From Lentimicrobiaceae bacterium (GTDB lineage: Bacteria; Bacteroidota; Bacteroidia; Bacteroidales; F082), in contig SUWU01000004.1 in assembly GCA_015061295.1 (NCBI GenBank), positions 4,436 to 68,435 of the forward strand: DNA of 64,000 nt. Direction: 5' to 3'. The number at the start of each line of letters is the position of its first letter. Position 1 is the first letter of the stretch. Made by a program: the position numbers and the translations under genes. Below the pieces are notes generated by a model. It was given only the letters and a program-made list of their open reading frames with translations. It searched no databases and was not told the origin of the DNA. Shown piece after piece: positions 2,038 through 61,983 of this stretch.

Positions 2038-2132
2038 GAGTTGCTGAGATGCTAAGTTGCTGAGATGCTAAGTCATTAAAAATCTTACTATCACAGCATC
2101 ATAGTAACTTAGCAACTTAGTAACTTAGTATC
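2038..2132. repeat. Word array R1: octamers GCTGAGAT/GCTAAGTT x4 plus an inverted arm (ACTTAGCA/ACTTAGTA)
   Basis: Read directly. The arms are imperfect reverse complements separated by about 30 nt. Confidence 0.9.
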
Positions 2133-2148
2133 TACAAAAAACGTTTAC

Positions 2149-3255
2149 ATGAAAACACTTGAATCATTACGACATAAGTTAAATAAAAACGCTGAATTGT
2201 CGGGACAAGAAAAGAATACAAATAAGATTATTAATAATTTTTTAGAGAAGACGAATCCCGATGTCCATTATAGAAATGTTGGCGGTTACGGAATTATAGT
2301 TATATATAAAGGTGCAGAAGAAGGAAAGAACATCTTGCTACGAGCCGACATCGATGGGTTGAATATACCTGGAGAGAGTCAATTTTCTCATCGTTGTGGG
2401 CATGATGGTCATGCGACGATATTATGTGGTTTGGCGATGCGTCTCGGCAAGAAACGTCCCGCAAAAGGAGATGTCATTCTTCTTTTCCAGCCTGCTGAAG
2501 AGACGGGAGAAGGCTCGCAGGCAGTCATCAACGACCCTTTGTTTCAGGGACTTAAAATAGATACAGCTTTCGCTTTGCATAATCTTCCTAGTTTTGCCAA
2601 ACATCAGATTGTGATAAAGAAAGACTGTTTCGCTTCAGCATCTTTAGGATTAAAACTTATTTTCGATGGCAAGACATCTCACGCCTCGCAACCTGAAAAT
2701 GGAAATAACCCTCAGAAAACCGTAACGACATTGCTCGATGCTTTTCAGAAGAAATATGAGAATCTATGTAACGACAAACATCACACTATTTTAACAGTGA
2801 CACATGTCGTTGTCGGAGAAGAGACTTTTGGAGTGACGCCAGGTCATGCCGAAATTTGGATGACGCTTAGAAGTCAAGACGACAAAGCGCTACAGAATCT
2901 GACAAATTATTGTATCGATTTATGCAGCCTTAAATCTAAAGAATCTAACCTAAGATTTTTATACAGCATACATGAATCCTTTGCCGCAACGATGAATACG
3001 ACAGAAGAAGTTGAGATTGTTAAACAAAGTGCTAAAGAATTAAAATTATCTATCAATGAAATAACAGATGCTTTTCCATGGTCGGAGGATTTCGGAAGAT
3101 TTGGAAGCATATGTCCGGTTTGTCTTTTCGGCTTAGGCTGCGGATTGGAACACGAGCCGCTTCATAGCCCGAGTTATGACTTTGAAGACGAGATTATTGA
3201 TACTGGCGTTGATGTATTTGAGAAGATAGTAGAAATTGAGGACCTTAAAATATAA
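2149..3255 (+). CDS. M20D-family amidohydrolase (N-acyl-amino-acid amidohydrolase-like)
   Basis: HRCGHDGH, LLFQPAEE and HSPSYDF motifs typical of the M20D peptidase/amidohydrolase family. Confidence 0.8.
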   Translation: MKTLESLRHKLNKNAELSGQEKNTNKIINNFLEKTNPDVHYRNVGGYGIIVIYKGAEEGKNILLRADIDGLNIPGESQFSHRCGHDGHATILCGLAMRLGKKRPAKGDVILLFQPAEETGEGSQAVINDPLFQGLKIDTAFALHNLPSFAKHQIVIKKDCFASASLGLKLIFDGKTSHASQPENGNNPQKTVTTLLDAFQKKYENLCNDKHHTILTVTHVVVGEETFGVTPGHAEIWMTLRSQDDKALQNLTNYCIDLCSLKSKESNLRFLYSIHESFAATMNTTEEVEIVKQSAKELKLSINEITDAFPWSEDFGRFGSICPVCLFGLGCGLEHEPLHSPSYDFEDEIIDTGVDVFEKIVEIEDLKI

Positions 3256-3260
3256 AAAAC

Positions 3261-3295
3261 GCAGCGATGATTTTATTTGTGTTTATCATCGCTGC
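3261..3295. terminator. Bidirectional hairpin between convergent genes
   Basis: Perfect 10-bp stem gcagcgatga / tcatcgctgc with a 15-nt loop. Confidence 0.6.
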
Positions 3296-3318
3296 ATTTC
3301 AAAATTATCTTTTGGTCA

Positions 3319-4287
3319 TCAATCTATAACCGGACGAATAGGATGTCCTCTATAACGAGGCTTATAAGTAGTATACACTTCTACACCATCGTTATAAGTG
3401 AAATAAAAAAGAACTCCCCATGCTGACTCATCTGCTCCCCCTCCATTCGTATAACCATCAATAGGAACAGAAGACATATATTCACCATATTCTCTGTATT
3501 CATCTTTGAAAGTAGAAGGAAGGAATATCGACTTCCCGTTAGATCCTGTTATCTTCATTCCCCATATTCCGTTCATTTCTACACGCTCCCACATACAGTT
3601 GTCACGCAACTCTCTAATTTCATCCATTGTCGGAATACGCCATTCTCCTCCCCAATTAGCTCGTGCTGCATCATACTGCGGATTTCCTGAAATATCATCA
3701 AATTCAACTCCCATTGTAATGCAGTTTTCTGACGTATATTCATCTTTCGGACTAATTTCTCCCCATGCGAATATGTCACCAAATCCACTTGGCAAATCAG
3801 CTCCCACGTTACATGTAGCCCATTTCAAACCAGATGGTAAACCAAGGTCGACATATTCATAGCCATTTATTTCTCCATCAGAATCATATTCATCGTCACT
3901 ACCGTTACTTTCTCCAAAATTCAATGTAGTAAAACTCATTTGTTCACTAAGAGTCATACCCACTTTATTACTCGCAAATGCTCTGACATAATATGTAGTA
4001 TTAGTCATCATTTCTGTTAGTCCCCATTCATAAACATTTGCTCCGGCAGGCTTTAGATGCTGGAGTGTTAGCCCAACACCATCTTCAGGAATCTCTTCTG
4101 TATCACAAAGAACACCACAAGTATAAATTTCCGCCCCACCATCATCAGTAATTTCGAAAACAACTTTCGCCGACATTGATGCAACATCTTTAATTTCTTT
4201 TATCACAACGGTTGGCAGTTCTGGTACAGGATCGCATGATATCAACAACAAACATGCGAACATAATTATCAATCCAAGTTTTTTCAT
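3319..4287 (-). CDS. Lipoprotein with Fn3-like N-domain and DUF1566/Lcl-C-terminal-like domain
   Basis: Lipobox LLISC. C-terminal YVDLGLPSGLKWATCNVGA..FAWGE..WRIPTMDEIRELRDNC..GSNGKSIFLP pattern common in Bacteroidales surface proteins. Confidence 0.6.
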   Translation of the reverse strand: MKKLGLIIMFACLLLISCDPVPELPTVVIKEIKDVASMSAKVVFEITDDGGAEIYTCGVLCDTEEIPEDGVGLTLQHLKPAGANVYEWGLTEMMTNTTYYVRAFASNKVGMTLSEQMSFTTLNFGESNGSDDEYDSDGEINGYEYVDLGLPSGLKWATCNVGADLPSGFGDIFAWGEISPKDEYTSENCITMGVEFDDISGNPQYDAARANWGGEWRIPTMDEIRELRDNCMWERVEMNGIWGMKITGSNGKSIFLPSTFKDEYREYGEYMSSVPIDGYTNGGGADESAWGVLFYFTYNDGVEVYTTYKPRYRGHPIRPVID

Positions 4288-4402
4288 AAAGTTTAATTTT
4301 ATAATTTTAATGGTGCAATATTAATAATAATAATAACAGTAAACAAATGATTTTTCTGAAAATTCAGTACAGTTAAGCTTGTTGAAGCTACTTTCAGAAA
4401 AA

Positions 4403-4437
4403 ACTTGTAGTTTTGTAGTCTTGTTGACTTGTAGTCT
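4403..4437. repeat. Word array R2: octamers CTTGTAGT/TTTGTAGT/CTTGTTGA
   Basis: Read directly. It ends 8 nt before the LOG -7 box. 19 nt of it recur, reverse-complemented, inside malQ (21482-21500). Confidence 0.9.
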
Positions 4438-4444
4438 TTTTTCT

Positions 4445-4471: not shown

Positions 4472-5059
4472 ATGAAAGTTTGTATTTTCTGCGGAAGCAG
4501 TATGGGCAACGATGTAAGATACCAAGAGGCTGCTGCACACTTAGGCGAGGTTCTCGCACAGAATGATTGTACGTTATATTACGGTGGAGGAAATATCGGT
4601 CTCATGAAAATCATCGCTGACAAGATGATAGAGAAAGGGAAAGAAGTCATCGGCATAATAACGAAAGGCCTCATCGACATGGAGCTGGCTCATGATAACA
4701 TAACAAAACTCGTTGAAGTAGAGACAATGTCGGAACGTAAACTAATGTTAATAAACGACTCTGACAGTTTCATCGCGATGCCAGGTGGCTTTGGAACCTT
4801 AGACGAACTTTTTGAAATAGTCGTTCTCAACCAACTGTGCATCACCGACAAACCTGTAGCACTTTATAACACATTAAATTACTACGACAAACTAATAGAC
4901 TTCATCGACCACGCTGTAAGTGAAGGCTTCATCAGAAAAGAACATCGCGACAATATTATTGTCAGCGACAATCCAGAAGTTTTATTTAAAGAATTGAGCA
5001 GACATAAATCCATCGACATAAAACAATGGATTGAAGATATTAAAGAAGAAAGCAGATAA
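4472..5059 (+). CDS. LOG-family (TIGR00730) nucleotide 5'-monophosphate nucleosidase
   Basis: MKVCIFCGSS start and PGGFGTLDE motif. Start moved from 4379 to ATG 4472 because the TAnnTTTG box at 4445-4452 lies inside the longer ORF. Confidence 0.85.
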   Translation: MKVCIFCGSSMGNDVRYQEAAAHLGEVLAQNDCTLYYGGGNIGLMKIIADKMIEKGKEVIGIITKGLIDMELAHDNITKLVEVETMSERKLMLINDSDSFIAMPGGFGTLDELFEIVVLNQLCITDKPVALYNTLNYYDKLIDFIDHAVSEGFIRKEHRDNIIVSDNPEVLFKELSRHKSIDIKQWIEDIKEESR

Positions 5060-5113
5060 TTGACAATTAACAATTGACAATTAACAATTGACAATTAACA
5101 ATTAACAATTGAC
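5060..5113. repeat. Word array R3: heptamers TTGACAA/TTAACAA x7.7
   Basis: Starts the nucleotide after the LOG stop codon. Stop codons occur in all frames. Confidence 0.95.
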
Positions 5114-6180: not shown

Positions 6181-6296
6181 GTCTCTGACAATGACTCTGA
6201 CAATGACTTTGACAATGACTTTGACAATGACTCTGACAATGACTTTGACAATGACCTGAAGACTTGGTGACTTGGAGACTTGGAGACTTGGAGACT
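6181..6296. repeat. Word array R4: 12-mers CTGACAATGACT(C/T) x6, then octamers GACTTGG(T/A) x4.5
   Basis: Starts the nucleotide after the stop of the deaminase-fusion gene and is followed by TAAAAAAAA. Confidence 0.95.
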
Positions 6297-8860: not shown

Positions 8861-8945
8861 GTTAACAATTAACAATGTACAATTTACAATGACAGTTTGA
8901 TATTAGAACTAATTGTTAATTATTCATTGTTAATTGTACATTATT
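8861..8945. repeat. Word array R5: TTAACAA/TGTACAA/TTTACAA arm plus inverted ATTGTTA arm
   Basis: Starts right after the era stop. The arms can pair as a long imperfect hairpin. Confidence 0.9.
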
Positions 8946-8982: not shown

Positions 8983-10290
8983 ATGAGTAATATTGTTGCA
9001 ATAGTAGGAAGACCTAATGTAGGTAAATCGACATTTTTTAATCGTTTAGTTCAGACACGTCAAGCCATTGTAGAAGAGACGAGTGGTGTGACTCGCGACC
9101 GTCATTATGGTCACAGCGACTGGAATGGAAAGTCGTTTACGGTGATAGACACAGGAGGTTATGTCGTTGGTTCTGACGATATTTTTGAAGAAGAGATTAG
9201 AAAACAAGTCGAGCTTGCTATTGAAGAAGCCGACGTTATAATATTCGTCGTCGATGGCAAAGAAGGTCTCCACGTCCTTGACGAAGACGTTGCCTTGATG
9301 TTACGTCGCTCCAAGAAAAAAGTATTACTCGCTGTCAACAAGACCGACATCCCTAACAAGGAAAGTAACATCGCCGACTTCTACTCTTTAGGTCTCGGCG
9401 ACATCTTCGCTTTCTCAGCCATGACAGGCACAGGTACCGGTGAGCTTTTAGATGAAGTTGTGAAACATCTTCCTAACGACACAACAGATACTTACGATGG
9501 ACTTCCTCGCTTCGCTCTCGTAGGTCGCCCTAATGTTGGCAAGTCTTCTATGATAAATGCCTTCTTAGGTCATGAACGTCATATCGTTACAGACATTGCA
9601 GGCACCACACGCGACAGCAACAACACTCGTTTCAACGCCTTCAATATGGATTTCATCCTTGTTGATACCGCTGGTCTTCGTAAGAAAAGCAAAGTCTCGG
9701 AAAATATAGAGTTCTATTCAGTCATGCGTTCGATACGCGCCATCGAGGAATGCGACGTAGCAGCACTCATCATCGACGCAACACAAGGATTCGAGGCACA
9801 AGATATGAACATCTTACGTCTCATCGAGAGAAATAAAAAAGGTCTCGTCCTCATCGTAAATAAATGGGACTTAGTAGAAAAAGACTCCAACACTCACCTT
9901 CAGTTCGAGAAGATGATAAGAGAGAAGACAGCGCCTTTCACCGATTATCCAATCATCTTTACTTCTGCAATAAATCGTCAAAGGACATTCCGCGTCTTGG
10001 AGGCTTTACATCAAGTGTATGAAAACCGCGAACGCAGAGTACCAGTACGCGAACTCAACGACACATTATTAGAGATAATATCAGCACAACCTCCACAAGT
10101 TGCATCACGAAATCGTTATCTCAAGATAAAATATATCACACAGCTGAAGAGCCCTACTCCACAGTTCATCTTCTTCTGTAATCTTCCAAAAGACGTCAAA
10201 GAGTCATATTGTCGTTTCTTAGAAAATAAAATACGTCAGAATTGGGACTTCAACGGAGTGCCGATACAGTTATTTTTCAGAGAAAAATAA
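8983..10290 (+). CDS. der: Ribosome-biogenesis GTPase Der (EngA), double GTPase
   Basis: Two G domains (GRPNVGKST twice, DTGG/DTAG, NKTD/NKWD). 435 aa. Confidence 0.95.
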   Translation: MSNIVAIVGRPNVGKSTFFNRLVQTRQAIVEETSGVTRDRHYGHSDWNGKSFTVIDTGGYVVGSDDIFEEEIRKQVELAIEEADVIIFVVDGKEGLHVLDEDVALMLRRSKKKVLLAVNKTDIPNKESNIADFYSLGLGDIFAFSAMTGTGTGELLDEVVKHLPNDTTDTYDGLPRFALVGRPNVGKSSMINAFLGHERHIVTDIAGTTRDSNNTRFNAFNMDFILVDTAGLRKKSKVSENIEFYSVMRSIRAIEECDVAALIIDATQGFEAQDMNILRLIERNKKGLVLIVNKWDLVEKDSNTHLQFEKMIREKTAPFTDYPIIFTSAINRQRTFRVLEALHQVYENRERRVPVRELNDTLLEIISAQPPQVASRNRYLKIKYITQLKSPTPQFIFFCNLPKDVKESYCRFLENKIRQNWDFNGVPIQLFFREK

Positions 10291-10350
10291 TTGACAATTA
10301 ACAATTGACAATGACTGTGGACGATGACTGTTGTCCATTGTCTCATTGAC
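10291..10350. repeat. Word array R6: TTGACAA/TTAACAA then GACAATGAC..GTCCATTGTC inverted words
   Basis: Starts right after the der stop and is followed by TAAAAAAA and the hslR ATG. Confidence 0.9.
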
Positions 10351-10359: not shown

Positions 10360-10737
10360 ATGGAAGAACTTCGTATAGATAAATGGTTATGGTGCGCTCG
10401 TCTTTTCAAGACGCGTACTCTTGCTGCCGATGCGTGTAAAGGTGGCAAGGTTAAGATTAATGACACTTCCATCAAGCCTTCGCGTGATGTCAAAGTTGGC
10501 GAGCAGATACAAGTACAGCTTGGTCAACTTCATAAAGTCGTTGAAGTAAAAAGCATTCCTAAGAGTCGCGTCTCGCCAAAGCAAGTAGAAGAAGTTTATA
10601 TCGATTTGACCCCGAAAGAAGAATACGAGAGAATAGAATTTATCCACGCATACAAGGTAGAATACCGCGACAGAGGCGCTGGGCGCCCGACTAAAAAAGA
10701 AAGAAGAGAAATCGACAGAATCAAAGGAGAGATGTAG
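10360..10737 (+). CDS. hslR: RNA-binding S4-domain protein (Hsp15/HslR-like)
   Basis: RIDKWLWCARLFKTRTLAADACKGGKVKIN S4 motif. 125 aa. Confidence 0.8.
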   Translation: MEELRIDKWLWCARLFKTRTLAADACKGGKVKINDTSIKPSRDVKVGEQIQVQLGQLHKVVEVKSIPKSRVSPKQVEEVYIDLTPKEEYERIEFIHAYKVEYRDRGAGRPTKKERREIDRIKGEM

Positions 10738-10741
10738 GCGG

Positions 10742-10783
10742 TTGGCTATTGGCTGTTGGCTGTTGGCTATTAGCTATTAGCTG
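10742..10783. repeat. Word array R7: heptamers TTGGCTA/TTGGCTG/TTAGCTA x6
   Basis: Begins 5 nt after the hslR stop. Confidence 0.95.
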
Positions 10784-16711: not shown

Positions 16712-17983
16712 ATGATTCGTAAAATATATAAATTCGGTGGCGCTTCAGTGAAAGACGCCAATGCTGTCAGAAACTTAAAGAATATTCTCGGAAAAGAAAA
16801 CAGAGATGACATCATGCTCGTTGTCTCCGCCATGGGAAAGACGACCAACGCCATAGAGAAGCTCCTCGCCGACTTCCGCGCAAACAACGGCCATCTTGAG
16901 ATAGGCGCGCTCAGCGAGATAATAGAATATCATGAAAATATCATGACAGAACTCTTCGAAGGCAACACCTCGCATCCTATCTTCGAGACGATGACCAATC
17001 TCTTCTTAGACTTATATCTCAACCTTAAAGAGACAGGCTACGACTACGACTATCAATACGATAACACCGTCAGTTTCGGTGAGATGCTCTCCACGACTCT
17101 TATCTCTGCTTATCTCAACGAGTGCGGCCTCGCAAACAAACTTTTAGACGCCCGCGAATATATCATCACTGACCATAACTTCCGTGCTGCTAACCCGGAA
17201 TGGGACGACTGCCGACTCAGGATACAGAAACTCAACGACGAACACGATGGCACCATGTATATAACACAGGGCTTCATCGCAAGCTCTACCTCGCCTAAGA
17301 CCACTACGACATTAGGAAGAGAAGGCTCTGACTTCACAGCAGCCATCTTCGCCAACTGCTTAGACGCCGAAGAAGTATCTATATGGAAAGACGTCGATGG
17401 CATCCGTAACGCCGACCCTAAACGCTTCCCCGACACTAAAAAGATCTCACATCTCTCTTACTTCGAGGCTATAGAACTCGCCTTCTACGGCGCCTCCATC
17501 ATCCATCCTAAGACACTGAAGCCTCTGCAAAACAAGAATATACCTCTGAAAGTCAGATGCTTCTTAGATACAAGATTAGAACCTACCGTCATCGACGGAA
17601 CCAAAGATTACATTGAATATATCCCTTCTTTCATCGTGAAAGAGAAACAGACTTTGATGAGCATCACCGCCCGCGACTATTCCTTCATGAACGAACATAA
17701 CCGCGCGCTCATCTTCAATATCATGGACGAACTCAACATACACGCCAATATGACGCAGGTGTCAGCTCTCGTCCTTTCTATCTGCTTCGACGAAAACGAA
17801 AAGAAACGCCTCCAACTCACAGAGGCGCTCTCTCAAGCTTTTAAAGTGAAATATAACGACGGACTTCAGCTCTTCACAATACGTCATTATCACGACGGAT
17901 TAGAGAAAGACTTCATCAAAGATAAAAAGATCTACGTCGAACAAAGAAGCCGAAGCACGTACCAAATTGTTTTAAGTTACTAA
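16712..17983 (+). CDS. lysC: Aspartate kinase
   Basis: KFGGASV, VVSAMGKTTN, LGREGSDFTA. 423 aa. Confidence 0.9.
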   Translation: MIRKIYKFGGASVKDANAVRNLKNILGKENRDDIMLVVSAMGKTTNAIEKLLADFRANNGHLEIGALSEIIEYHENIMTELFEGNTSHPIFETMTNLFLDLYLNLKETGYDYDYQYDNTVSFGEMLSTTLISAYLNECGLANKLLDAREYIITDHNFRAANPEWDDCRLRIQKLNDEHDGTMYITQGFIASSTSPKTTTTLGREGSDFTAAIFANCLDAEEVSIWKDVDGIRNADPKRFPDTKKISHLSYFEAIELAFYGASIIHPKTLKPLQNKNIPLKVRCFLDTRLEPTVIDGTKDYIEYIPSFIVKEKQTLMSITARDYSFMNEHNRALIFNIMDELNIHANMTQVSALVLSICFDENEKKRLQLTEALSQAFKVKYNDGLQLFTIRHYHDGLEKDFIKDKKIYVEQRSRSTYQIVLSY

Positions 17984-19678: not shown

Positions 19679-19687
19679 AAAAAAACT

Positions 19688-46570: not shown

Positions 46571-46619
46571 TTAATAGTTGATAATTAATAGTTGGTAGTT
46601 GACAACTCACAATTTTCAA
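46466..46619. repeat. Word array R19: hexamers GACAAT/GACGAT (CPBP tail), then heptamers TTAATAG/TTGATAA/TTGGTAG/TTGACAA
   Basis: The hexamer part is translated. The heptamer part starts at the stop codon. Confidence 0.95.
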
Positions 46620-47034: not shown

Positions 47035-47048
47035 ATTAAAGTCAACGA

Positions 47049-47090
47049 GCTAATAGCTAATGGCTAATGGCTAATAGCTAACGGCTAATT
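47049..47090. repeat. Word array R20: heptamers GCTAATA/GCTAATG/GCTAACG x6
   Basis: Lies between the convergent GtrA and O-antigen-ligase-like genes. Confidence 0.95.
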
Positions 47091-48693: not shown

Positions 48694-48727
48694 TCATTGT
48701 TAATTGTACATTATTAATTGTTAATTC
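48694..48727. repeat. Word array R21: ATTGTTA/ATTGTAC/ATTAATT words
   Basis: Encodes the last codons (GINN) and the stop of the S41 peptidase gene on the minus strand. Confidence 0.85.
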
Positions 48728-50410: not shown

Positions 50411-50438
50411 CAACTATCAACTATTAACTATTAACTGA
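50411..50438. repeat. Word array R22: heptamers CAACTAT/TAACTAT/TAACTGA x4
   Basis: Lies immediately 3' of yidD on the minus strand. It is the reverse complement of the TTAATAG/TTGATAG family. Confidence 0.9.
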
Positions 50439-52779: not shown

Positions 52780-53787
52780 ATGGATCTCATAGAACAAATA
52801 AAACAAAATGCACGTGAAAACAGACAACGCATCGTGCTTCCTGAAGGCGACGAGGAAAGAACAATAAAAGCCGCCGACCAACTCATTGCCGATGGCATCG
52901 CTGATGTCATTCTCATCGGACCAGCCCAAAAGATCAAAGATATGGCTAAAGAGTTTGAGTTGAAAAACATCGACAAAGCCTGTATCGTAGATCCAAAGAA
53001 CAACCCAGACAGAGACAAATACGCCAATTTACTTTTTGAACTCCGTAAGAACAAAGGCTTGACATTTGAACAAGCACAAGAGTTTGCTGAGAACTTCATG
53101 TATCTCGGTGTTCTCATGCTCAAAGCTGGCGACGCCGACGGTTTAGTCAGTGGCGCTCGTAGCACTACAGGCGACATGCTCCGTCCTGCATTGCAAATCA
53201 TCAAAACTGCTCCAGGAGTATCATGCGTATCAGGAGCTTTCATCATGTTCCTTCCTAACGACAAATACGGAACCGATGGCAAGATAGTATGCGCCGACTG
53301 CGCTGTGACACCAGTTCCAACAGCAGAACAACTTGCAGAAATAGCAGTATGTACCGCCGACACAGCCAAGAACATCGCCAAGATAGACCCTAAAGTAGCA
53401 ATGCTCAGCTTCTCTACTAAAGGCTCAGCAAAACATGAAGATGTCGATAAAGTTATCAAGGCAACAGCATTAGCAAAACAGATGCGTCCTGATTTGTGCA
53501 TCGACGGAGAACTTCAGGCTGATGCCGCCATTGTTCCTTCTGTTGGCGCAAGCAAAGCTCCTAATAGCGATGTAGCAGGCAAGGCTAACACATTGGTATT
53601 CCCAAGATTGGAAGTAGGTAACATAGCATATAAACTCGTTCAACGTCTCGCTGGCGCTGAAGCAGTAGGCCCTGTACTTCAAGGCTTCGCAAAACCATGT
53701 AACGACCTCAGCCGCGGATGTTCTATCGACGACATCTATAAGTTAGTAGCAATCACATGTAACCAGGCGATAGCACAGAAACAATGA
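52780..53787 (+). CDS. pta: Phosphate acetyltransferase
   Basis: RIVLPEGDEERT, DGLVSGA, GELQADAA, NDLSRG PTA_PTB motifs. Confidence 0.95.
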   Translation: MDLIEQIKQNARENRQRIVLPEGDEERTIKAADQLIADGIADVILIGPAQKIKDMAKEFELKNIDKACIVDPKNNPDRDKYANLLFELRKNKGLTFEQAQEFAENFMYLGVLMLKAGDADGLVSGARSTTGDMLRPALQIIKTAPGVSCVSGAFIMFLPNDKYGTDGKIVCADCAVTPVPTAEQLAEIAVCTADTAKNIAKIDPKVAMLSFSTKGSAKHEDVDKVIKATALAKQMRPDLCIDGELQADAAIVPSVGASKAPNSDVAGKANTLVFPRLEVGNIAYKLVQRLAGAEAVGPVLQGFAKPCNDLSRGCSIDDIYKLVAITCNQAIAQKQ

Positions 53788-53817
53788 ACAATGAACAATT
53801 GACAATTAACAATTAAC
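53779..53817. repeat. Word array R23: TGAACAA/TTGACAA/TTAACAA heptamers
   Basis: Contains the last pta codons and its stop. Confidence 0.9.
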
Positions 53818-53829: not shown

Positions 53830-55029
53830 ATGAAAATTTTAGTTTTAAACTGTGGCAGTTCTTCTATCAAGTATCAGCTTTTTGATATTGATGACAATCA
53901 GCATACTGTCATGGCAAAGGGTCTCCTCGAGCGTATAGGTCTCGAAATGGGAGAGTTTACTCACAAATGGAATGGCGAGAAATATTACGAACAACTTCCT
54001 ATTCCAAATCACACCGTAGGTATCAGCATAGTTCTCAAAGCCTTGCTCGACGAAAATCATGGTGTCATCAAATCATTAGATGAAATTGGTGCTGTTGGAC
54101 ATCGTTTAGTTCATGGTGGCGAGAAGTTCACCAAGAGCGTCCTCATCGATGGTAGCGTCATGGAACTCATGGAAGAACTCGTTGACCTCGCTCCTCTTCA
54201 CAACCCAGCATGTATGGCAGGCGTGAAAGCTGTCACCGAATTACTACCTAACGTAAAACAAGGAGGCTGCTTCGACACTGCCTTCCATTCAACGATGAAA
54301 CCTGAGGCTTACCTCTACCCTATCCCTTACGAATATTACGAAAAATATCGTGTTCGCCGTTACGGCTTCCACGGAACAAGTCATAAATACGTCTCTGAGA
54401 ACGCAGCTAAATTCGTTGGCAAAGACTGGAAAGACCAAAAAATTATCACATGCCATCTCGGCAGCGGCGCTTCTATAGCAGCAGTACAAAACGGCAAATC
54501 TGTTGATACATCAATGGGCTTCACTCCTGTTGAAGGACTCATGATGGGCAGCCGTACTGGCGACTTAGACCTTGGCGTATTCATGTATATAGCTGAAAAA
54601 GAAGGCTACGACCTTAAACAGATGAACACTCTCGTCAACAAAAAATCCGGCCTCATCGGAATAACAGGCGACAAACAAGATATGCGCGACGTGAGAGCTG
54701 GCAAAGAAGCTGGCGATGAACGCGCGACATACGCTTTCAATATGTTCAAGCATCGAGTAAAGAAATATATAGGTGCTTACGCAGCAGTGATGAATGGCGT
54801 TGACATCATCGTCATGACCGGAGGAATAGGCGAAAACGCATGGTTTATGAGAGGTCCTATACTTCAAGATATGGAATATCTCGGCGTCAAAATCGACATG
54901 AGCATCAACGATGGCTTGATGGGCGAAGCTAAAGTCATCTCAACACCTGACTCAAAAGTTACCGTCGTCGTGTTCCCAACCGACGAAGAATATATGATCG
55001 CTAAAGATACTTACGACCTTGTGAAGTAA
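53830..55029 (+). CDS. ackA: Acetate kinase
   Basis: ILVLNCGSSSIKYQLF, GHRLVHGG, YGFHGTSH, GGIGEN. Confidence 0.95.
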   Translation: MKILVLNCGSSSIKYQLFDIDDNQHTVMAKGLLERIGLEMGEFTHKWNGEKYYEQLPIPNHTVGISIVLKALLDENHGVIKSLDEIGAVGHRLVHGGEKFTKSVLIDGSVMELMEELVDLAPLHNPACMAGVKAVTELLPNVKQGGCFDTAFHSTMKPEAYLYPIPYEYYEKYRVRRYGFHGTSHKYVSENAAKFVGKDWKDQKIITCHLGSGASIAAVQNGKSVDTSMGFTPVEGLMMGSRTGDLDLGVFMYIAEKEGYDLKQMNTLVNKKSGLIGITGDKQDMRDVRAGKEAGDERATYAFNMFKHRVKKYIGAYAAVMNGVDIIVMTGGIGENAWFMRGPILQDMEYLGVKIDMSINDGLMGEAKVISTPDSKVTVVVFPTDEEYMIAKDTYDLVK

Positions 55030-55125
55030 GATGCTGAGTTACTGAGATGCTGAGATGCTGAGTTACTGAGATGCTTAGCATCTTAGCATCTTAGCATCTT
55101 AACATCTTAGCATCTTAGCATCTTA
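55030..55125. repeat. Word array R24: octamers GATGCTGA/GTTACTGA arm and inverted TTAGCATC x6 arm
   Basis: Fills the spacer between convergent ackA and the choloylglycine hydrolase gene exactly, stop to stop. Confidence 0.95.
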
Positions 55126-56196
55126 TAATCTTATCTCCTCCACCTCTTGCGAGTCTTTCTTATCTAAAGCATGATATTGATATTCTACTTTTGAGAAGTC
55201 AATCTCCTTCAAATCTATTTTCCTTATAGCATTATTATAAAAGGTCTTAAAATAAACTTCCTTATTTGTCAGGTCGATGACTGAAGTCCATTGTGTTGCG
55301 CTTGGCATATCAGGGATTTCGTTTTTAGGAAAGTTCATTCCGATAGGAATATCGAAGTTATTTAAGATATGAAAACATTGTAACATCGTCTCTTGTGCCG
55401 TTGCTAAAGTCGGTGCAGTAGCCTTGAAGAAGGCAGCTCTCACGAAGCGAGAAGGCGGCGTAAAGTCACCTGGCAACCCAAGGAAACCATTGCCATGACC
55501 TATTGGATTTACCTTAAACTCATACATCTCTTGCGCAGGAGGATTCACAGGAGTGAGATTGATGTAATTGCTCAGATTGGTAAGATGCCATTGAAAACCG
55601 GGAGCGTTGGTAATCACACCGACAGGATTATCGTAGATATGAACCACGCCTTGTTCTATCTCGATAACGATTTGCTTTCCAGAGCTATCACCGACTCTCC
55701 AATGTATAGCTGCTTCTTTACCATCGCCGCCCATGAGAGAGACGACACGCACCTTATTAATATTAGCCTTTACCTCATCAACAGTAGCAAACTGCGACAA
55801 CAACCACGGCACCAACTGCAAGTCGGATATTGTCGTTGAATTGTATCTCTCATCATAAAGCAGATAACTACCATAATTAGGATAATAGAACAAACCTGCG
55901 GAGAGACCTGCTTCATTGAGACCTTCCGCCACAAACTCCTTCTCTTCCACAGCAAGACCTACATAACCATATTTGGCTTTAAATGTCATTCCATTCTTGC
56001 CCTTAGGAGTGAAAGATGTCTGACTAAAATTACGAGGAACGACGACATAAACGCTGTTAAGATTGGAGCCTGCCCACTCTATAGTCCTCGCCTGAAAATA
56101 AGAGCCATCGGCTGAAAACATCGAGATACCTGTACAAGCATCCGCTTTAAATTGCCATGCTAACAGCAAGCACGCAACAATAAATAACTTTTTCAT
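55123..56196 (-). CDS. Choloylglycine hydrolase family (bile-salt hydrolase / linear amide C-N hydrolase), secreted
   Basis: Signal peptide ending ..KADA followed by the nucleophile Cys (CTGISM). Ntn-hydrolase pattern. Start set at Met13 (56196). Confidence 0.8.
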   Translation of the reverse strand: MKKLFIVACLLLAWQFKADACTGISMFSADGSYFQARTIEWAGSNLNSVYVVVPRNFSQTSFTPKGKNGMTFKAKYGYVGLAVEEKEFVAEGLNEAGLSAGLFYYPNYGSYLLYDERYNSTTISDLQLVPWLLSQFATVDEVKANINKVRVVSLMGGDGKEAAIHWRVGDSSGKQIVIEIEQGVVHIYDNPVGVITNAPGFQWHLTNLSNYINLTPVNPPAQEMYEFKVNPIGHGNGFLGLPGDFTPPSRFVRAAFFKATAPTLATAQETMLQCFHILNNFDIPIGMNFPKNEIPDMPSATQWTSVIDLTNKEVYFKTFYNNAIRKIDLKEIDFSKVEYQYHALDKKDSQEVEEIRL

Positions 56197-56256: not shown

Positions 56257-56326
56257 TTTGACAATGACTCTGACATTGACATTGACAATGACATTGACAA
56301 TGACATTGACGATGACAATGACTCAG
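56257..56326. repeat. Word array R25: hexamers GACAAT/GACATT/GACGAT
   Basis: Intergenic. Shares a 46-nt exact string with the uvrC insertion. Confidence 0.95.
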
Positions 56327-60340: not shown

Positions 60341-60384
60341 ATATAAATAATTGTATCAAGAGAGCATTTTCCCATATTATTTTT

Positions 60385-60392
60385 TATTTTTG
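60385..60392 (+). promoter_or_regulatory. Candidate -7 box for yqaE-like/queA
   Basis: tatttttg, 13 nt before ATG 60405. Confidence 0.45.
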
Positions 60393-60404
60393 CAAGAAAA
60401 AATT

Positions 60405-60557
60405 ATGTCATTAATCAGAGTCATTCTATCTATCATTTTTCCTCCTTTAGCTGTATTGGATCAAGGCTGCGGATCTATTCTTATCGTATTTATACTTACA
60501 CTATGCGGTTGGATTCCTGGCGTTATCGCTGCATTAGTCATTCTTAATAAAAGTTAA
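60405..60557 (+). CDS. YqaE/Pmp3-family small membrane proteolipid
   Basis: 50 aa. IIFPPLAV..CGWIPGVIAAL signature. Start at ATG 60405, 13 nt after the -7 box. Confidence 0.8.
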   Translation: MSLIRVILSIIFPPLAVLDQGCGSILIVFILTLCGWIPGVIAALVILNKS

Positions 60558-60571
60558 TAAGTCTTAACATT

Positions 60572-61864
60572 ATGATTGATAAAGTCAGAAATATTTCTAT
60601 TGAGGATTACGATTATCCACTCCCCGATGAGCGCATCGCTAAGTATCCTTTAAGTGAACGTGACGCTTCGAAGTTGTTAGTATTAAACAAAGACAACATA
60701 TCATCTTCTCATTTTAAAGATATAGGCGACTTCCTCCCAAAGGATTCTCTTCTTATCTTTAACGAGACAAAAGTCGTGAGGGCAAGACTTCAGTTTACCA
60801 AAGACAGTGGCGCTGCCATAGAGATATTCTGCTTAGAACCCATAACAGGCAACGGCGATTACCAACTCGCCTTCAGTAGCAAATCACCATCAAGATGGAA
60901 GTGCTTAGTAGGGAACTCCCGCCGCTGGAAAAACGAAACGGCTTTAAGTCTCCGAGTCCCCGTGTCCCCGTGTCCCCGTGTCCCCGTGTCAAGGTCATTG
61001 TCAGTGTCAGTGTCAGAGTCAACGTCAATGTCAGAGTCAACTCTTTATGCGAAGCGTTTGGAGAAGAACGACAATTACTCTGTGGTAGAGTTTTCTTGGG
61101 AGCCTGAGGAGTTAAGTTTCGCCGAGGTGTTGGAAGCAGCAGGCGAGATACCTCTTCCTCCTTATCTTCACCGCGAGGCAGAAGAGTCGGACAGAGAACG
61201 CTATCAGACTGTCTTTGCAAGACATGAAGGCTCAGTGGCCGCTCCAACAGCGGGGCTACATTTTACCGATGATCTAATTAACGACCTAAAAGAAAAAGGA
61301 ATATCTTTCGAAAAAGTGACGCTACATGTCGGAGCAGGAACGTTCCGTCCCGTGTCGTCGGAGACGATAGGAGAACATGAGATGCACTCCGAGACGATAG
61401 TAGTTAAAAAATCATGCATCGAAAATATATTAAGGAATATCGACAAGACCATCATTCCCGTCGGCACTACAAGCATGAGAACGATAGAGTCGTTATATTG
61501 GATAGGACTTATGTTGAAAGAAGAAGGTTTGGAAGAACGACATCTTCATCTTGAGCAGTGGTTTCCATATAAAGAAAGAGAGACACTTCCGCCAGCAGAA
61601 AAATCTCTCTCAACAATATTAGATTATCTAAAATCTCATAATCTTAACGAGTTACACGCCACCACAGCTTTAATGATAGCACCATCGTGTAAGATAAACA
61701 TCGCCAAAGCTCTGATAACAAATTTCCACCAACCTAAGAGCACCTTATTATTATTGGTGTCGGCTCTCATCGGAGAACGATGGAAAGAAGCATACCAATA
61801 CGCCTTAGATAACGACTTCAGATTTCTGAGCTACGGCGACAGTTGCCTTTTTATCAATGAATAA
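60572..61864 (+). CDS. queA: S-adenosylmethionine:tRNA ribosyltransferase-isomerase with a repeat-derived in-frame insertion
   Basis: YDYPLPDERIAKYP, IPLPPYL, YQTVFA..GSVAAPTAGLHFT, NFHQPKSTLL motifs. The segment SLRVPVSPCPRVPVSRSLSVSVSESTSMSEST is encoded by word arrays. Confidence 0.9.
   Translation: MIDKVRNISIEDYDYPLPDERIAKYPLSERDASKLLVLNKDNISSSHFKDIGDFLPKDSLLIFNETKVVRARLQFTKDSGAAIEIFCLEPITGNGDYQLAFSSKSPSRWKCLVGNSRRWKNETALSLRVPVSPCPRVPVSRSLSVSVSESTSMSESTLYAKRLEKNDNYSVVEFSWEPEELSFAEVLEAAGEIPLPPYLHREAEESDRERYQTVFARHEGSVAAPTAGLHFTDDLINDLKEKGISFEKVTLHVGAGTFRPVSSETIGEHEMHSETIVVKKSCIENILRNIDKTIIPVGTTSMRTIESLYWIGLMLKEEGLEERHLHLEQWFPYKERETLPPAEKSLSTILDYLKSHNLNELHATTALMIAPSCKINIAKALITNFHQPKSTLLLLVSALIGERWKEAYQYALDNDFRFLSYGDSCLFINE
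60948..61041. repeat. Word array R26 inside queA: octamers GTCCCCGT x4, then hexamers GTCAGT/GTCAGA/GTCAAC/GTCAAT
   Basis: Read in frame as SLRVPVSPCPRVPVSRSLSVSVSESTSMSEST. Confidence 0.95.
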
Positions 61865-61983
61865 TGTACAATGAACAATGACAATGACAATGACAATGAA
61901 CAATGACAATGAACAATGACAATGAACATTATACATTGTACATTATTAATTGTTAATTGTCAATTGTTAATTGTTAATTGTCT
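61865..61983. repeat. Word array R27: AATGAC/AATGAAC arm and inverted ATTGTTA/ATTGTCA arm
   Basis: Lies between convergent queA and the SulP gene. The right arm includes the last 5 SulP codons and its stop. Confidence 0.95.

What the first reader, a model, noticed from the sequence alone, without database searches (positions are those of the whole stretch)
2038..61983. Pervasive short-period tandem 'word' arrays built from a small shared vocabulary, placed at gene 3' ends
I count 28 blocks by eye in 64 kb. Each is a tandem run of 6-, 7-, 8-, 9- or 12-nt units. The units come from a few related families: GACAAT/GACATT/GACGAT; TTGACAA/TTAACAA/TGTACAA/TGAACAA/TGAATAA; CTTGGTGA/CTCAGTGA/CTCGGTGA/CTTGGAGA; GCTGAGAT/GCTAAGTT/TTACTGAG; GGCTAAT/GGCTATT/GGCTGTT; TTAATAG/TTGATAG; CTTGTAGT. 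Placement is not random. Many blocks start on the nucleotide after a stop codon (5060, 6181, 8861, 10291, 20892, 23329, 27947, 34751, 55030, 61865). They often fill the spacer exactly up to the next gene. The heptamer and octamer versions carry TGA/TAA/TAG in every frame. This does not look like ordinary microsatellite slippage, REP/BIME elements or CRISPR. It resembles an uncharacterised family of intergenic elements with possible roles in termination, mRNA 3'-end structure, translational insulation of adjacent cistrons, or protein binding.
Basis: seen in the sequence. Interest (0 to 1): 0.8.

Follow-up and report, generated by a model that had tools for sequence, protein, structure and literature searches.

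The report
Hypervariable short tandem-repeat arrays between genes
An uncultured ruminant-gut Bacteroidales bacterium has about a quarter of its DNA between genes made of 6-8-base tandem "word" arrays that change copy number between strains and often pair into hairpins at gene ends; this is a very dense new example of a repeat class already known from cyanobacteria and some other Bacteroidetes.

Summary
Tandem Repeats Finder gives 39 merged arrays (1,966 bp) against 0-4 in composition-matched simulations. Arrays cover 26% of non-coding but 1.2% of coding DNA. All ten "first base after a stop codon" positions check out.

The organism is an uncultured gut Bacteroidales, not a cyanobacterium. The same kind of array fills the same spacers in about 16 syntenic related genomes from independent assemblies.

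In ten strains of the same species (proteins 97-100% identical) the arrays differ by whole units. Of 91 indel blocks, 80 lie in arrays.

Two things were missed. Many arrays come as inverted pairs that fold into long hairpins with periodic arms. These sit mainly between convergent genes, where other genomes have ordinary terminator hairpins. G-poor ACAATTR heptamers instead form unstructured spacers inside operons.

Stop-codon adjacency is largely a by-product: the arrays carry stops, so reading frames end on them.

Closest known are long simple-sequence repeats, cyanobacterial STRRs and TAACTGA heptamers. I rate this a new member of a known kind, unusually dense. Function at RNA 3' ends is inferred, not shown.

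The parts
2039..2130 (.). Inverted array pair in the divergent PMI|M20 spacer. The 5' arm is 2039-2073 (AGTTGCTGAGATGCTA, 8/16-nt period). The 3' arm is 2102-2130 (TAGTAACT).
   Evidence: TRF. The spacer folds at -52.8 kcal/mol, z = -6.0. A TAnnTTTG motif at 2018 lies upstream, so the hairpin may sit in the M20 5' UTR (inference).
4404..4438 (+). CTTGTAGT 8-mer array, 4.4 copies, just upstream of the putative LOG promoter (TATATTTG at 4445).
5058..5110 (+). AATTGAC/AATTAAC heptamer array, 7.6 copies. It starts inside the LOG stop codon and is unstructured.
   Evidence: Spacer fold z = +0.3.
6183..6296 (+). 12-mer array (GACAAT plus GACTYT, 6.5 copies) followed by an AGACTTGG 8-mer array (4.6 copies), after the kinase-dCMP deaminase stop. 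An A-run and an ordinary hairpin with a T-run follow at 6297-6336.
8862..8942 (.). Inverted heptamer arrays in the Era|Der spacer: TTAACAA type at 8862-8891 and TAATTGT type at 8910-8942. A TAnnTTTG motif for der follows at 8950.
   Evidence: Fold z = -4.7..
10289..10345 (+). AATTGAC heptamers overlapping the Der stop, then a GACAATGAC-type short hairpin, then an A-run before the S4-domain gene.
   Evidence: (z = -2.7).
10733..10783 (+). GGCTRTT heptamer array overlapping the stop of the S4-domain gene.
12455..12490 (-). ACTCGTTG 8-mer run (4.5 copies) inside the C-terminal sorting domain of the 1,388-aa T9SS protein.
17973..18059 (.). Inverted arrays between the convergent AA-kinase and AA-permease genes. 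The 5' arm is 8-mers (TAAGTTAC/GAGATGCT). The 3' arm is 9-mers (ACTCAGCAY). Pairing is weak in this strain.
   Evidence: z = -1.25 here, but z from -3.1 to -6.3 in 10 of 12 spacers folded at this site.
19587..19714 (+). ACTTTG hexamers, GGACTTGG 8-mers (7.8 copies), an A-run and a TTCGTCTTTAGACA doublet in the divergent AA-permease|PRT spacer, upstream of the PRT TAnnTTTG motif at 19722.
   Evidence: Strain length variation from 83 to 310 nt.
20890..20933 (.). Short hairpin with 8-mer arms (AAGTCACC repeated ... GAGACTCGGTGACTC) in the Adk|GH77 spacer, followed by an A-run and the GH77 start.
   Evidence: z = -3.8. Strain alleles of 54, 61, 62, 78 and 85 nt, and a different 75-nt hairpin allele in L092.
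21476..21566 (+). In-frame arrays inside GH77: CAACAAGA 8-mers, then TCAATG/TCAACG/TCAGAG hexamers encoding (S-x)n. They occupy the place of an ancestral loop.
21978..22083 (+). In-frame G-rich AACGGG/ACGGGT array and CTCRGWGA 8-mers inside GH77, at the site where a domain of roughly 90 aa present in other Bacteroidota is missing.
23325..23460 (.). Long inverted hexamer arrays between convergent OsmC and DUF4296. The 5' arm is (GACGAT/GACAAT)n. The 3' arm is (TCATTG/TCAATG)n.
   Evidence: MFE -64.7 kcal/mol, z = -8.8. 33 to 209 nt among strains.
27128..27204 (+). Palindromic element GACGCATCAATG...CATTGATACGTC followed by TCTAC (27128-27177; the other strand begins GTAG), followed directly by an ACTTATTG 8-mer array (27176-27204) and an A-run before LptB.
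   Evidence: Spacer z = -3.5.
27947..27989 (+). ACAATTT/ACAATTA heptamer array filling the LptB|CDP-OH spacer. No predicted structure.
   Evidence: MFE 0.0. Strain alleles of 24, 38 and 45 nt.
32955..33060 (+). AATGAAC/AATGAAT heptamers that supply the GT1b stop codon, then GTGACTCA/GTGACTTG 8-mers and an A-run before ABC-F.
34751..34797 (.). Hairpin with short 8-mer-like arms (AGTCGCAAGGTCGCAGAG ... GTGACCTTACGACCT) after the ABC-F stop. It falls below the TRF threshold.
   Evidence: z = -5.4..
38630..38680 (+). In-frame GACAAT/GACATT hexamer array inside UvrC.
46466..46605 (+). AATGAC hexamers (16.8 copies) translated as the (ND)n C-terminal tail of the Rce1-like protein, then AATAGTT heptamers that supply the stop codon.
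47048..47089 (.). AGCTAAT/GGCTAAT heptamer array between convergent GtrA and Wzy. It is partly self-complementary.
   Evidence: z = -3.4.
48695..48726 (-). ATTGTTA heptamers (ACAATTA on the minus strand, the sense of the genes) filling the S41|Wzy spacer.
50411..50436 (-). CAACTAT heptamers (ATAGTTR on the minus strand), starting 4 nt after the stop of a YidD ORF (50440-50670, minus strand) that is too short (76 aa) to appear in the 90-aa ORF listing.
53780..53817 (+). AACAATG/AACAATT heptamers that supply the Pta stop codon and fill most of the Pta|AckA spacer. Unstructured.
   Evidence: (MFE -1.0).
55029..55133 (.). Inverted 8-mer arrays filling the convergent AckA|CBAH spacer. The 5' arm is GAGATGCT/GAGTTACT. 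The 3' arm is AGCATCTT.
   Evidence: MFE -53.6 kcal/mol, z = -10.1.
56258..56322 (+). GACAAT/GACATT hexamer array between an ordinary terminator hairpin (56336-56368, minus strand) and the CBAH start. It is antisense to the flanking minus-strand genes.
60948..61041 (+). In-frame GTCCCCGT 8-mers (5.4 copies) and GTGTCA hexamers inside QueA.
61855..61982 (.). CAATGA(A)C 6/7-mers overlapping the QueA stop, and inverted ATTGTTA heptamers overlapping the SulP stop (convergent genes).
   Evidence: z = -2.6.

Best explanation
These are long simple-sequence repeats with 6-, 7- and 8-nt units, of the same kind as cyanobacterial STRRs and the heptamer repeats reported in a few Bacteroidetes. Here they occur at very high density in an uncultured ruminant-gut Bacteroidales lineage.

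Shown. The arrays gain and lose whole units quickly, which fits slipped-strand mispairing. They are almost excluded from coding sequence and from promoter-bearing spacers. They therefore pile up in the only free DNA of a 92%-coding genome, which is the stretch just past stop codons.

Shown. Most arrays carry stop codons, so ORFs end on or inside them. Arrays without a stop in the frame in use are read as low-complexity protein segments.

Shown as anatomy, inferred as function. Two structural classes exist.
(1) Inverted pairs of arrays from one word family fold into long, imperfect hairpins whose repeated arms can pair in several registers. They sit mainly between convergent genes. At the same sites other genomes carry ordinary hairpins with T-runs. 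The 5' arm is purine-rich, as in the ordinary hairpins. I infer that they act as 3'-end hairpins, either bidirectional transcription barriers or blocks to 3' exonucleases, much as REP elements do in enterobacteria.
(2) G-poor ACAATTR heptamer arrays have no predicted structure and sit in operon-internal spacers that lack a promoter motif. I infer that they serve as tolerated, unstructured spacers ahead of the next start codon in an organism that does not use Shine-Dalgarno sites.

The two arms of a hairpin use the same word family, so they are coupled, either by selection for pairing or by template switching between the arms. Which of the two is not resolved.
For: Real and non-random: 39 blocks against 0-4 simulated; 26.4% of non-coding against 1.17% of coding bases; 0.81% of coding against 9-22% of spacer bases in 16 related loci.

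Not an artefact: the same arrays appear in independent assemblies from at least ten samples with SPAdes-style, MEGAHIT-style and scaffold-style record names, and in about 16 related genomes from several studies.

Slippage behaviour: whole-unit length differences among strains whose proteins are 97-100% identical. 80 of 91 indel blocks lie in arrays, and gap columns are 55-65% in arrays against 0.5% and 2.7% elsewhere.

Stop adjacency: median gap of 3 nt to stops against 28 nt to starts. Arrays inside genes have no stop in any frame on the sense strand in GH77 (21476-21508, 21522-21566, 21978-22040) and QueA (60948-61041); the other in-gene arrays have none in the frame in use.

Hairpins: z-scores from -2.6 to -10.1 for the hairpin-type spacers in the window. 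Ten of 12 AA-kinase|AA-permease spacers folded (ten related genomes plus two alleles of the window's species) fold into one periodic hairpin with z from -3.1 to -6.3, although the unit sequence differs between genomes. At OsmC|DUF4296 some genomes have array hairpins and others (L007, L014, L005) have ordinary hairpins with T-runs. Array-rich convergent spacers fold at -0.279 kcal/mol per nt against -0.218 for array-free ones. The 5' arm is purine-rich in 17 of 22 array hairpins and in 14 of 16 non-array hairpins. A hairpin's own arms pair at -0.92 kcal/mol per nt against -0.42 for arms taken from different loci, and every hairpin uses one word family on both arms.

Unstructured class: MFE 0.0 to -1.0 kcal/mol for LptB|CDP-OH and Pta|AckA, and z about +0.3 for LOG|kinase and GT1b|ABC-F.

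Promoters: only 1 of 12 array-bearing co-directional spacers holds a TAnnTTTG motif, against 5 of 11 array-free ones (my tally).

Prior descriptions of the kind: PMC4679880 (which also summarises Mrazek 2007), PMC4692102, and PMC12699852 (high short-tandem-repeat density in Bacteroidota).
Against: No transcript data, so any role in termination or stabilisation is inference from position and fold.

Most array hairpins lack a T-run after the stem. Several are followed by an A-run instead (Adk|GH77; the arrays ending at 6296, 19678 and 33060). The consensus terminator scan did not flag them and was not above shuffle expectation in two of the three 20-kb stretches scanned (60001-64000 was not scanned).

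Arm lengths vary independently between strains at OsmC|DUF4296. The window's own AA-kinase|AA-permease hairpin is weak (z = -1.25), and two strains carry a 33-nt near-deletion allele at OsmC|DUF4296. Selection on the hairpins therefore cannot be strict.

Some strain differences could be short-read assembly errors. Contigs break at arrays and scaffolds carry N-gaps there.

The cross-genome hairpin counts reuse the same orthologous site, so they are not fully independent.

A core motif shared across genomes (CTNAG/ACTYRG in 27 of 58 8-mer arrays, 18-fold enriched) is not explained by plain slippage.
Confidence: 0.6

Rival explanations
1. Purely neutral repeat accumulation. A lineage-specific slippage bias at 6-8-nt units produces arrays wherever selection does not remove them. 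Hairpins arise only because arrays in opposite orientation lie next to each other, and none of the arrays has a function.
For: Unit-number polymorphism and rapid turnover. Vocabulary changes between related genomes. Arm lengths vary independently, and near-deletion alleles exist. Arrays intrude into ORFs, and GH77 is split in one strain, L084. Density ranges widely, from 4 to 42 bp/kb, among close relatives.
Against: The two arms of a hairpin use the same word family at every hairpin spacer in the window, and at the AA-kinase|AA-permease site in every related genome, even though the family differs between genomes. Array hairpins and ordinary hairpins with T-runs replace one another at the same sites and share arm polarity. 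Stop-adjacent arrays show an orientation preference: only 4 of 62 have a unit whose reverse complement is also seen in that position.
Confidence: 0.3
2. The arrays are derived from, or are the preferred target of, a small mobile hairpin element: the palindrome GACG..TCAATG...CATTGA..CGTC followed by TCTAC, whose other strand begins GTAG. This resembles REP/REPIN elements moved by a RAYT transposase. The shared vocabulary would then be inherited from the element and its flanks.
For: The element is followed by a 7- or 8-mer array directly after CTAC in most clade copies (for example window, L003, L004, L014, L073, L083 and L091), but not in L007, L009 or L016. It shows presence/absence polymorphism within the species: it is inserted in the AA-permease|PRT array only in L083 and L091. 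In GH77, an allele carrying the element (L091, L092, L003) and an allele carrying a hexamer array (window, L083, L089) occupy the same site and share the head GTAGAG. Rumen Bacteroidales relatives carry inverted doublets of a GTAGAGACG hairpin.
Against: Most arrays in the window have no copy of the element nearby; there is one copy in 64 kb. The core of the 8-mer arrays is ACTYRG/CTNAG, not the GAGACG stem of the element. No transposase gene is present in the window. Insertion into arrays that already existed explains the association equally well.
Confidence: 0.15
3. The arrays are repeated binding sites for a sequence-specific DNA- or RNA-binding protein, for example an S1-, Csp- or nucleoid-type protein. 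This would form a genome-wide regulatory or structural network, as proposed for TAACTGA repeats in Beggiatoaceae.
For: A core motif is shared by 8-mer arrays across genomes (CTNAG/ACTYRG, 18-fold enriched, in 27 of 58 arrays). Arrays are oriented relative to the upstream gene. The architecture of array followed by an A-run before a start codon recurs in several genomes. The proposal has a precedent in PMC4679880.
Against: The words differ strongly between related genomes, and copy number is unconstrained within the species. That is not expected for a conserved recognition network. Arrays flank unrelated housekeeping genes. No candidate protein was identified.
Confidence: 0.1
4. Assembly artefact: the arrays are created or inflated by short-read assemblers.
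For: Contigs end at arrays (L001, L002). A scaffold has N-gaps at arrays (L086).
Against: The same arrays, at the same sites and with the same units, are recovered from at least ten samples with SPAdes-style, MEGAHIT-style and scaffold-style record names. Identical alleles recur in different samples: L084 = L087 and L086 = L088. Related genomes from several studies show the same phenomenon. Most arrays are shorter than a read.
Confidence: 0.01

Closest known systems
Long simple-sequence repeats with 5-11-nt units (Mrazek et al. 2007, as summarised in PMC4679880)
   Same: Head-to-tail arrays of short units. They are over-represented relative to base composition, mostly intergenic, and heptamers are the commonest unit. 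Units that are multiples of three are tolerated in genes. Slippage is the proposed origin. All of these properties were seen here.
   Different: The density here is extreme: about 0.6 arrays per kb and 26% of non-coding DNA. 8-mers are as common as 7-mers. Many arrays are arranged as inverted pairs. This gut Bacteroidales clade is not among the genomes those studies describe, as far as my searches show.
Cyanobacterial short tandemly repeated repetitive sequences, STRR (Mazel et al. 1990; cited in PMC4692102; details from my own knowledge)
   Same: Families of tandem heptanucleotides spread through the intergenic DNA of a whole lineage. Each genome has a small vocabulary. Function is still unknown.
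   Different: Different phylum and different words: no tandem CCCCAGT, TTGGTCA or CAACAGT in the window. Here there are also 6- and 8-nt units and hairpin pairs.
TAACTGA heptamer direct repeats of Beggiatoaceae, cyanobacteria and five Bacteroidetes (MacGregor 2015, PMC4679880)
   Same: Intergenic heptamer direct repeats with stop codons in all frames. Some overlap the stop codon of the upstream gene. Other heptamer arrays occur in the same spacers in Gramella, Aequorivita and Elizabethkingia. Contigs break at the repeats.
   Different: There is no tandem TAACTGA in the window. Those repeats sit mostly just upstream of start codons, whereas the arrays here abut stop codons. That paper reports a single indirect repeat in the BOGUAY genome and no strain polymorphism.
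GGGNATC heptamer repeats of Xanthomonas and GGGGAYT repeats of Nostoc (Rehm et al. 2015, PMC4692102)
   Same: Heptamer arrays enriched in non-coding DNA, with variable copy number and occasional inverted pairs that could form stem-loops.
   Different: Those are G-rich words that form quadruplexes and prefer four units. The words here are mostly A/T-rich. Only the arrays inside genes at 21978-22040 and 60948-60990 are G- or C-rich.
REP/BIME and REPIN elements (PMC3116915; the function of REPs as mRNA 3' stabilisers and the GTAG head are from my own knowledge)
   Same: Hairpin-forming repeats in spacers at gene 3' ends and inside operons. This is probably the nearest analogue for how the hairpin class works. 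A separate palindrome with a GTAG head and REP-like features lies next to some arrays.
   Different: REPs are palindromic units of 20-40 nt that are dispersed as copies, not tandem runs of non-palindromic words of 6-8 nt. Their copies are conserved in sequence, whereas these arrays turn over quickly. A link to a RAYT transposase was not tested.

Membership tests
Long simple-sequence repeats / VNTR-type arrays | Head-to-tail copies of a unit of about 5-11 nt | tested here: met
   TRF periods of 6, 7, 8, 9 and their multiples.
Long simple-sequence repeats / VNTR-type arrays | More frequent than base composition predicts | tested here: met
   39 blocks against 0-4 in 20 third-order Markov simulations.
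Long simple-sequence repeats / VNTR-type arrays | Length polymorphism by whole units between close strains | tested here: met
   Alleles of 24, 38 and 45 nt; mostly 8-nt steps (54, 61, 62, 78, 85 nt); and 33 to 209 nt at three spacers. 80 of 91 indel blocks lie in arrays. Caveat: all are short-read assemblies.
Long simple-sequence repeats / VNTR-type arrays | Enriched in non-coding DNA, with in-frame units tolerated in genes | tested here: met
   26.4% against 1.17%. Arrays inside genes have no stop in the frame in use.
Cyanobacterial STRR | Host is a heterocystous cyanobacterium | tested here: not met
   Gene content is that of Bacteroidota: T9SS sorting domains, DUF4296, DUF4271. Nearest genomes are Bacteroidales MAGs.
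Cyanobacterial STRR | The STRR1-3 heptamer words | tested here: not met
   No tandem copies in the window. The words themselves are recalled from memory.
TAACTGA direct repeats (MacGregor 2015) | The unit is TAACTGA | tested here: not met
   Five single copies and no tandem copy.
TAACTGA direct repeats (MacGregor 2015) | Forward orientation within a few nucleotides upstream of a start codon | tested here: not met
   Arrays lie next to stops (median gap 3 nt) rather than starts (median gap 28 nt).
REP/BIME/REPIN | The unit is an imperfect palindrome of 20-40 nt, dispersed as conserved copies | tested here: not met
   The array units are non-palindromic words of 6-8 nt in tandem. Only the separate GACG...CGTC-TCTAC element fits this feature.
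REP/BIME/REPIN | Association with a RAYT (Y1 transposase) gene | not tested
   No such gene is in the window. A whole genome of the clade was not available.
CRISPR array | Repeats of about 23-47 nt separated by unique spacers of similar length | tested here: not met
   Units of 6-8 nt are contiguous, with no spacers.
Intrinsic (Rho-independent) terminator | A stable stem-loop at the 3' end of a gene | tested here: met
   True for the hairpin class only: z from -2.6 to -10.1.
Intrinsic (Rho-independent) terminator | A run of T directly after the stem | tested here: not met
   No array hairpin was listed by the scan over 1-60000. Several are followed by an A-run. The 3' arms are merely pyrimidine-rich.
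Intrinsic (Rho-independent) terminator | Transcripts end there | not testable with these tools
   No RNA data.
Phase-variable contingency locus | The repeat lies in the promoter or 5' coding region of a surface or virulence gene, so that a change in unit number switches expression | tested here: not met
   Most arrays follow the stop codons of housekeeping genes: era, der, adk, ackA, pta, lptB, queA.
Known RNA families (Rfam) | A match above the gathering score | tested here: not met
   Only two tRNA genes matched.

The most novel reading that the evidence does not exclude
The periodic-arm hairpins are a distinct class of 3'-end element. On this reading, ordinary terminator or REP-like hairpins have been expanded by coupled slippage and template switching between the arms, possibly seeded by the GTAG-headed palindrome. 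The result is a stem-loop that can pair in several registers, renews itself, and functionally replaces intrinsic terminators or acts as an intercistronic RNA stabiliser throughout a Bacteroidales lineage. The G-poor heptamer arrays would serve as unstructured leaders for translation without Shine-Dalgarno sites.
Probability: 0.2. Interest if true: 0.7.

Novelty: new member of a known kind. Interest (0 to 1): 0.45.

Why it matters
Tandem heptamer families have been known in cyanobacteria since 1990 and were later noted in a few Bacteroidetes. Their origin and function are still open questions.

This lineage is a very dense natural case: roughly one array per 1.6 kb and a quarter of the non-coding DNA. 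Many strain-level alleles are already present in public metagenomes. Questions about mutation rate, coupling of the hairpin arms and use at RNA 3' ends can therefore be tested with long reads and rumen metatranscriptomes.

There are practical consequences. The arrays break short-read assemblies of abundant ruminant-gut Bacteroidales. They shift gene ends, insert variable peptide segments into enzymes (GH77, QueA, UvrC, an Rce1-like protease), and may split genes (GH77 in one strain). All of this affects annotation and strain typing.

Tried and rejected
Cyanobacterial STRR was my first guess from the words and the 40% G+C. I rejected it once Pfam showed Bacteroidota gene content and the nearest genomes proved to be Bacteroidales MAGs. 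None of the published heptamer words occurs in tandem in the window.

Rfam matched only tRNA genes.

The sigma-70 promoter scan picks up the TTGACAATTAACAAT arrays, but Bacteroidetes do not use that consensus, so I disregarded those hits. The terminator scan was no better than shuffles in two of the three stretches scanned, and it recovered only the few canonical terminators.

I tested whether the 8-mer words derive from the GAGACG stem of the palindromic element. K-mer enrichment points to an ACTYRG/CTNAG core instead, so that link stays weak.

I tested whether hairpin arms are matched specifically within each locus. They are matched at the level of the word family, and arms of the same family pair equally well across loci.

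One literature search with taxon words returned only unrelated papers. I found no paper describing these arrays in gut Bacteroidales. This is absence in the held library, not proof that none exists.

The first look-up by exact Adk protein returned only 1.2-kb contigs that end at the array. The OsmC look-up gave the useful strain set.

Full report
**1. Observation**

Tandem Repeats Finder reports 107 rows. They merge into 39 blocks of period 6-24 nt covering 1,966 bp. Twenty third-order Markov simulations of the window gave 0-4 blocks and 0-159 bp.

The main ones are:
- AACAATT and one-mismatch relatives among the heptamers;
- AATGAC and relatives among the hexamers;
- 8-mers of the pattern NACTYRKY (GACTTGGT, GACTCGGT, AACTTAGC, ATCTCAGC and so on).

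All ten positions given as "the nucleotide after a stop codon" are exactly that, and each ORF concerned has a Pfam domain.

**2. Organism and genes**

My first guess was cyanobacterial STRRs. The gene content says otherwise. It includes three proteins with the T9SS C-terminal sorting domain, DUF4296, DUF4271, LptF/G, era-der and pta-ackA.

The nearest genomes are uncultured Bacteroidales MAGs from animal guts. The best GH77 match, at 84% identity, is labelled "Lentimicrobiaceae bacterium SIG107". Others are labelled Bacteroidales or Candidatus Limimorpha.

The window is 92% coding.

**3. Placement**

- Arrays cover 26.4% of non-coding bases and 1.17% of coding bases.
- By spacer type they cover 60% of convergent, 23% of co-directional and 13% of divergent spacer bases.
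- The three convergent spacers without arrays each hold a strong ordinary hairpin.
- In 16 syntenic loci of the clade, arrays cover 0.81% of coding and 9-22% of spacer bases.
- In those loci the median gap from a stop codon to the nearest array edge is 3 nt, and 54 of 109 gaps are 2 nt or less or overlap the ORF. The median gap from an array to a start codon is 28 nt.
- The Bacteroidetes -7 promoter motif TAnnTTTG (from my own knowledge of the consensus) lies in the array-free parts of divergent spacers. By my tally, it occurs in 1 of 12 array-bearing co-directional spacers and in 5 of 11 array-free ones.

So the arrays occupy DNA that is neither coding nor promoter.

**4. Why ORFs stop at arrays**

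Read in the sense of the upstream gene, most 7- and 8-mer arrays have stop codons in all three frames. In many cases the stop codon itself is part of the first unit, for example TAA|GTCACC, where the unit is AAGTCACC, and TAA|GATGCT.

Several arrays begin before the stop and so supply it (Pta, GT1b, QueA, S4, AA-kinase).

Where an array has no stop in the frame in use, it is translated. Examples are the (ND)n tail of the Rce1-like protein and the segments inside GH77, QueA and UvrC.

Stop adjacency is therefore expected if arrays expand until they meet sequence under selection. It does not by itself point to a function.

**5. Hypervariability**

A look-up of the exact OsmC protein returned ten contigs of the same species from other samples. 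Their proteins are 97-100% identical to the window's, apart from Adk and GH77 (91-99%) and a few others at 94-96%.

At the arrays the strains differ by whole units:

| Spacer | Lengths among strains |
|---|---|
| LptB\|CDP-OH | 24, 38, 45 nt |
| Adk\|GH77 | 54, 61, 62, 78, 85 nt |
| OsmC\|DUF4296 | 33 to 209 nt |

Two strains carry a different word family on one arm at AA-kinase|AA-permease. One strain carries a wholly different hairpin at Adk|GH77.

In an alignment of ten strains over 16.4 kb, gap columns make up 55-65% of array columns. They make up 0.5% of non-array coding and 2.7% of non-array intergenic columns. Of 91 indel blocks, 80 lie in arrays.

Identical alleles recur in different samples (L084 = L087, L086 = L088), which argues against random assembly error. 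Still, contigs break at arrays and scaffolds have gaps there, so some differences may be artefacts.

**6. Two structural classes**

*Hairpin class.* Folding each spacer shows inverted array pairs that form long imperfect hairpins:

| Spacer | z-score |
|---|---|
| AckA\|CBAH | -10.1 |
| OsmC\|DUF4296 | -8.8 |
| PMI\|M20 | -6.0 |
| Era\|Der | -4.7 |
| Adk\|GH77 | -3.8 |
| QueA\|SulP | -2.6 |

*Unstructured class.* Direct ACAATTR heptamer arrays have no predicted structure. LptB|CDP-OH has an MFE of 0.0, and LOG|kinase, Pta|AckA and GT1b|ABC-F have z about +0.3.

At the convergent AA-kinase|AA-permease spacer, every clade genome has a tandem-unit arm followed by its inverted counterpart, yet the unit differs between genomes. 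Ten of the 12 spacers folded at this site fold into one periodic hairpin with z from -3.1 to -6.3.

At OsmC|DUF4296, some genomes have array hairpins and others have ordinary hairpins with T-runs.

Other measures:
- Array-rich convergent spacers fold at least as strongly as array-free ones: -0.279 against -0.218 kcal/mol per nt.
- The 5' arm is purine-rich in 17 of 22 array hairpins and in 14 of 16 ordinary hairpins. This property does not depend on which strand is read.
- A hairpin's own arms pair better than arms from other loci: -0.92 against -0.42 kcal/mol per nt. The match is at the level of the word family.

These facts support positional and structural equivalence with 3'-end hairpins.

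They do not show termination. Most array hairpins lack a T-run, several are followed by an A-run and the next start codon, and the scan of 1-60000 did not list them. Inside operons, an exonuclease-barrier role like that of REP elements is the closer analogy.

**7. Distribution**

Array density is 30.7 bp/kb in the window and 4-42 bp/kb in the syntenic clade. It is 10-27 bp/kb in many rumen Bacteroidales of higher G+C, and near zero in Sediminibacterium, Ferruginibacter, Saccharicrinis and others.

Periods 7 and 8 and their multiples dominate in the relatives, and the preferred words differ from genome to genome. A core (CTNAG/ACTYRG) recurs in 27 of 58 8-mer arrays of the clade, an 18-fold enrichment. 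This is unexplained.

**8. Arrays inside genes**

In GH77 the arrays sit where other Bacteroidota have a conserved loop and a domain of roughly 90 aa. The encoded peptide varies between strains, for example (SMSE)n copy number, and the gene is split in L084.

**9. Comparison with what is known**

The nearest descriptions are:
- long simple-sequence repeats with 5-11-nt units, in which heptamers are commonest and slippage is proposed (Mrazek 2007, as summarised in PMC4679880);
- cyanobacterial STRRs (cited in PMC4692102);
- TAACTGA heptamers in Beggiatoaceae, cyanobacteria and five Bacteroidetes, with other heptamer arrays in the same spacers (PMC4679880);
- GGGNATC repeats in Xanthomonas and GGGGAYT repeats in Nostoc, with occasional inverted pairs (PMC4692102).

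A 2025 survey notes a high short-tandem-repeat density in Bacteroidota (PMC12699852).

None of the published words is tandemly repeated here.

I therefore file this as a new member of a known kind. What is unusual is the density, the equal weight of 8-mers, the hairpin arrangement with matched arms, and the abutment to stop codons rather than start codons.

**10. Verdict**

- Best explanation: slippage-driven, lineage-wide simple-sequence repeats that fill unconstrained 3' spacers. The inverted pairs probably serve as 3'-end hairpins. Confidence 0.6 overall. It is high for the repeat nature and about even for the RNA-level role.
- Interest: 0.45.

Noticed in passing
window 27128-27177; also L003, L004, L007, L009, L014, L016, L073, L083, L091: A palindromic element of about 50-70 nt, GACG[Y/R]NTCAATG...CATTGANNCGTC followed by TCTAC. 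Its other strand begins GTAG, as REP sequences do. It is often preceded by an A-run. In most copies (not in L007, L009 or L016) it is followed directly by a 7- or 8-mer array. It is present in the AA-permease|PRT spacer only in strains L083 and L091, so it appears to be mobile. Rumen Bacteroidales relatives (L028, L031, L042, L053, L069, L074) carry inverted doublets of a GTAGAGACG hairpin.
   Followed up: partly
L091 8530-8715, L092 8530-8715, L003 10505-10690, compared with window 21450-21635: The same palindromic element lies in frame inside the GH77 gene of some strains, where it is translated as SRDASMIPTISTNIDTS. At the same site the window's allele has GTAGAGTCGCAAAG followed by a hexamer array. 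A mobile hairpin and a tandem array are thus alternative alleles within a coding sequence.
   Followed up: partly
window 35273-35305 and 36606-36638: An identical 33-nt segment containing a hairpin (TATGGACAAAGTCTGTTGTCCGTTGACATAAAA) lies on both sides of the AAA_14/DUF4143 ATPase gene (35359-36597). In strains L085 and L092 a gene of this type sits elsewhere, between the PLP decarboxylase and the AA-kinase. It looks like a mobile gene cassette.
   Followed up: no
window 21978-22040 and 60948-60990: Arrays inside genes that are G-rich (GGGAAAC/GGGTAC, in GH77) or C-rich (GTCCCCGT, 5.4 copies, in QueA). They could form G-quadruplexes on one strand.
   Followed up: no
window 50440-50670, minus strand: A 76-aa YidD ORF (PF01809, E = 2.8e-31) lies downstream of rnpA. 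It was too short for the 90-aa ORF list. A heptamer array starts 4 nt after its stop codon.
   Followed up: yes
L005 17397-17675, L007 19631-19923, L014 17002-17330: A conserved structured-looking element of about 150-250 nt (GTGAGCCCTGAAAGGGCGAAAC ... GCGAGCAAAGATATAGCGGAAAGCCCGACGGC ... CCGGAACGCCC) lies in the LptB|CDP-OH spacer of three relatives, with its own internal G-rich arrays. It is absent from the window.
   Followed up: no
window 12364-16530 compared with L085, L090, L092: The 1,388-aa T9SS surface protein gene is present in the window and most strains. It is absent from the corresponding position in three strains, so there is strain-level gene-content variation next to the arrays.
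   Followed up: no
window 19560-19600 and the orthologous AA-permease upstream regions in the clade loci: A short block (AAATGAAATGTTCA / AAAATGTTCAA) just upstream of the amino-acid permease start is conserved across the clade, while the rest of the spacer turns over. It may be a promoter or leader element.
   Followed up: no
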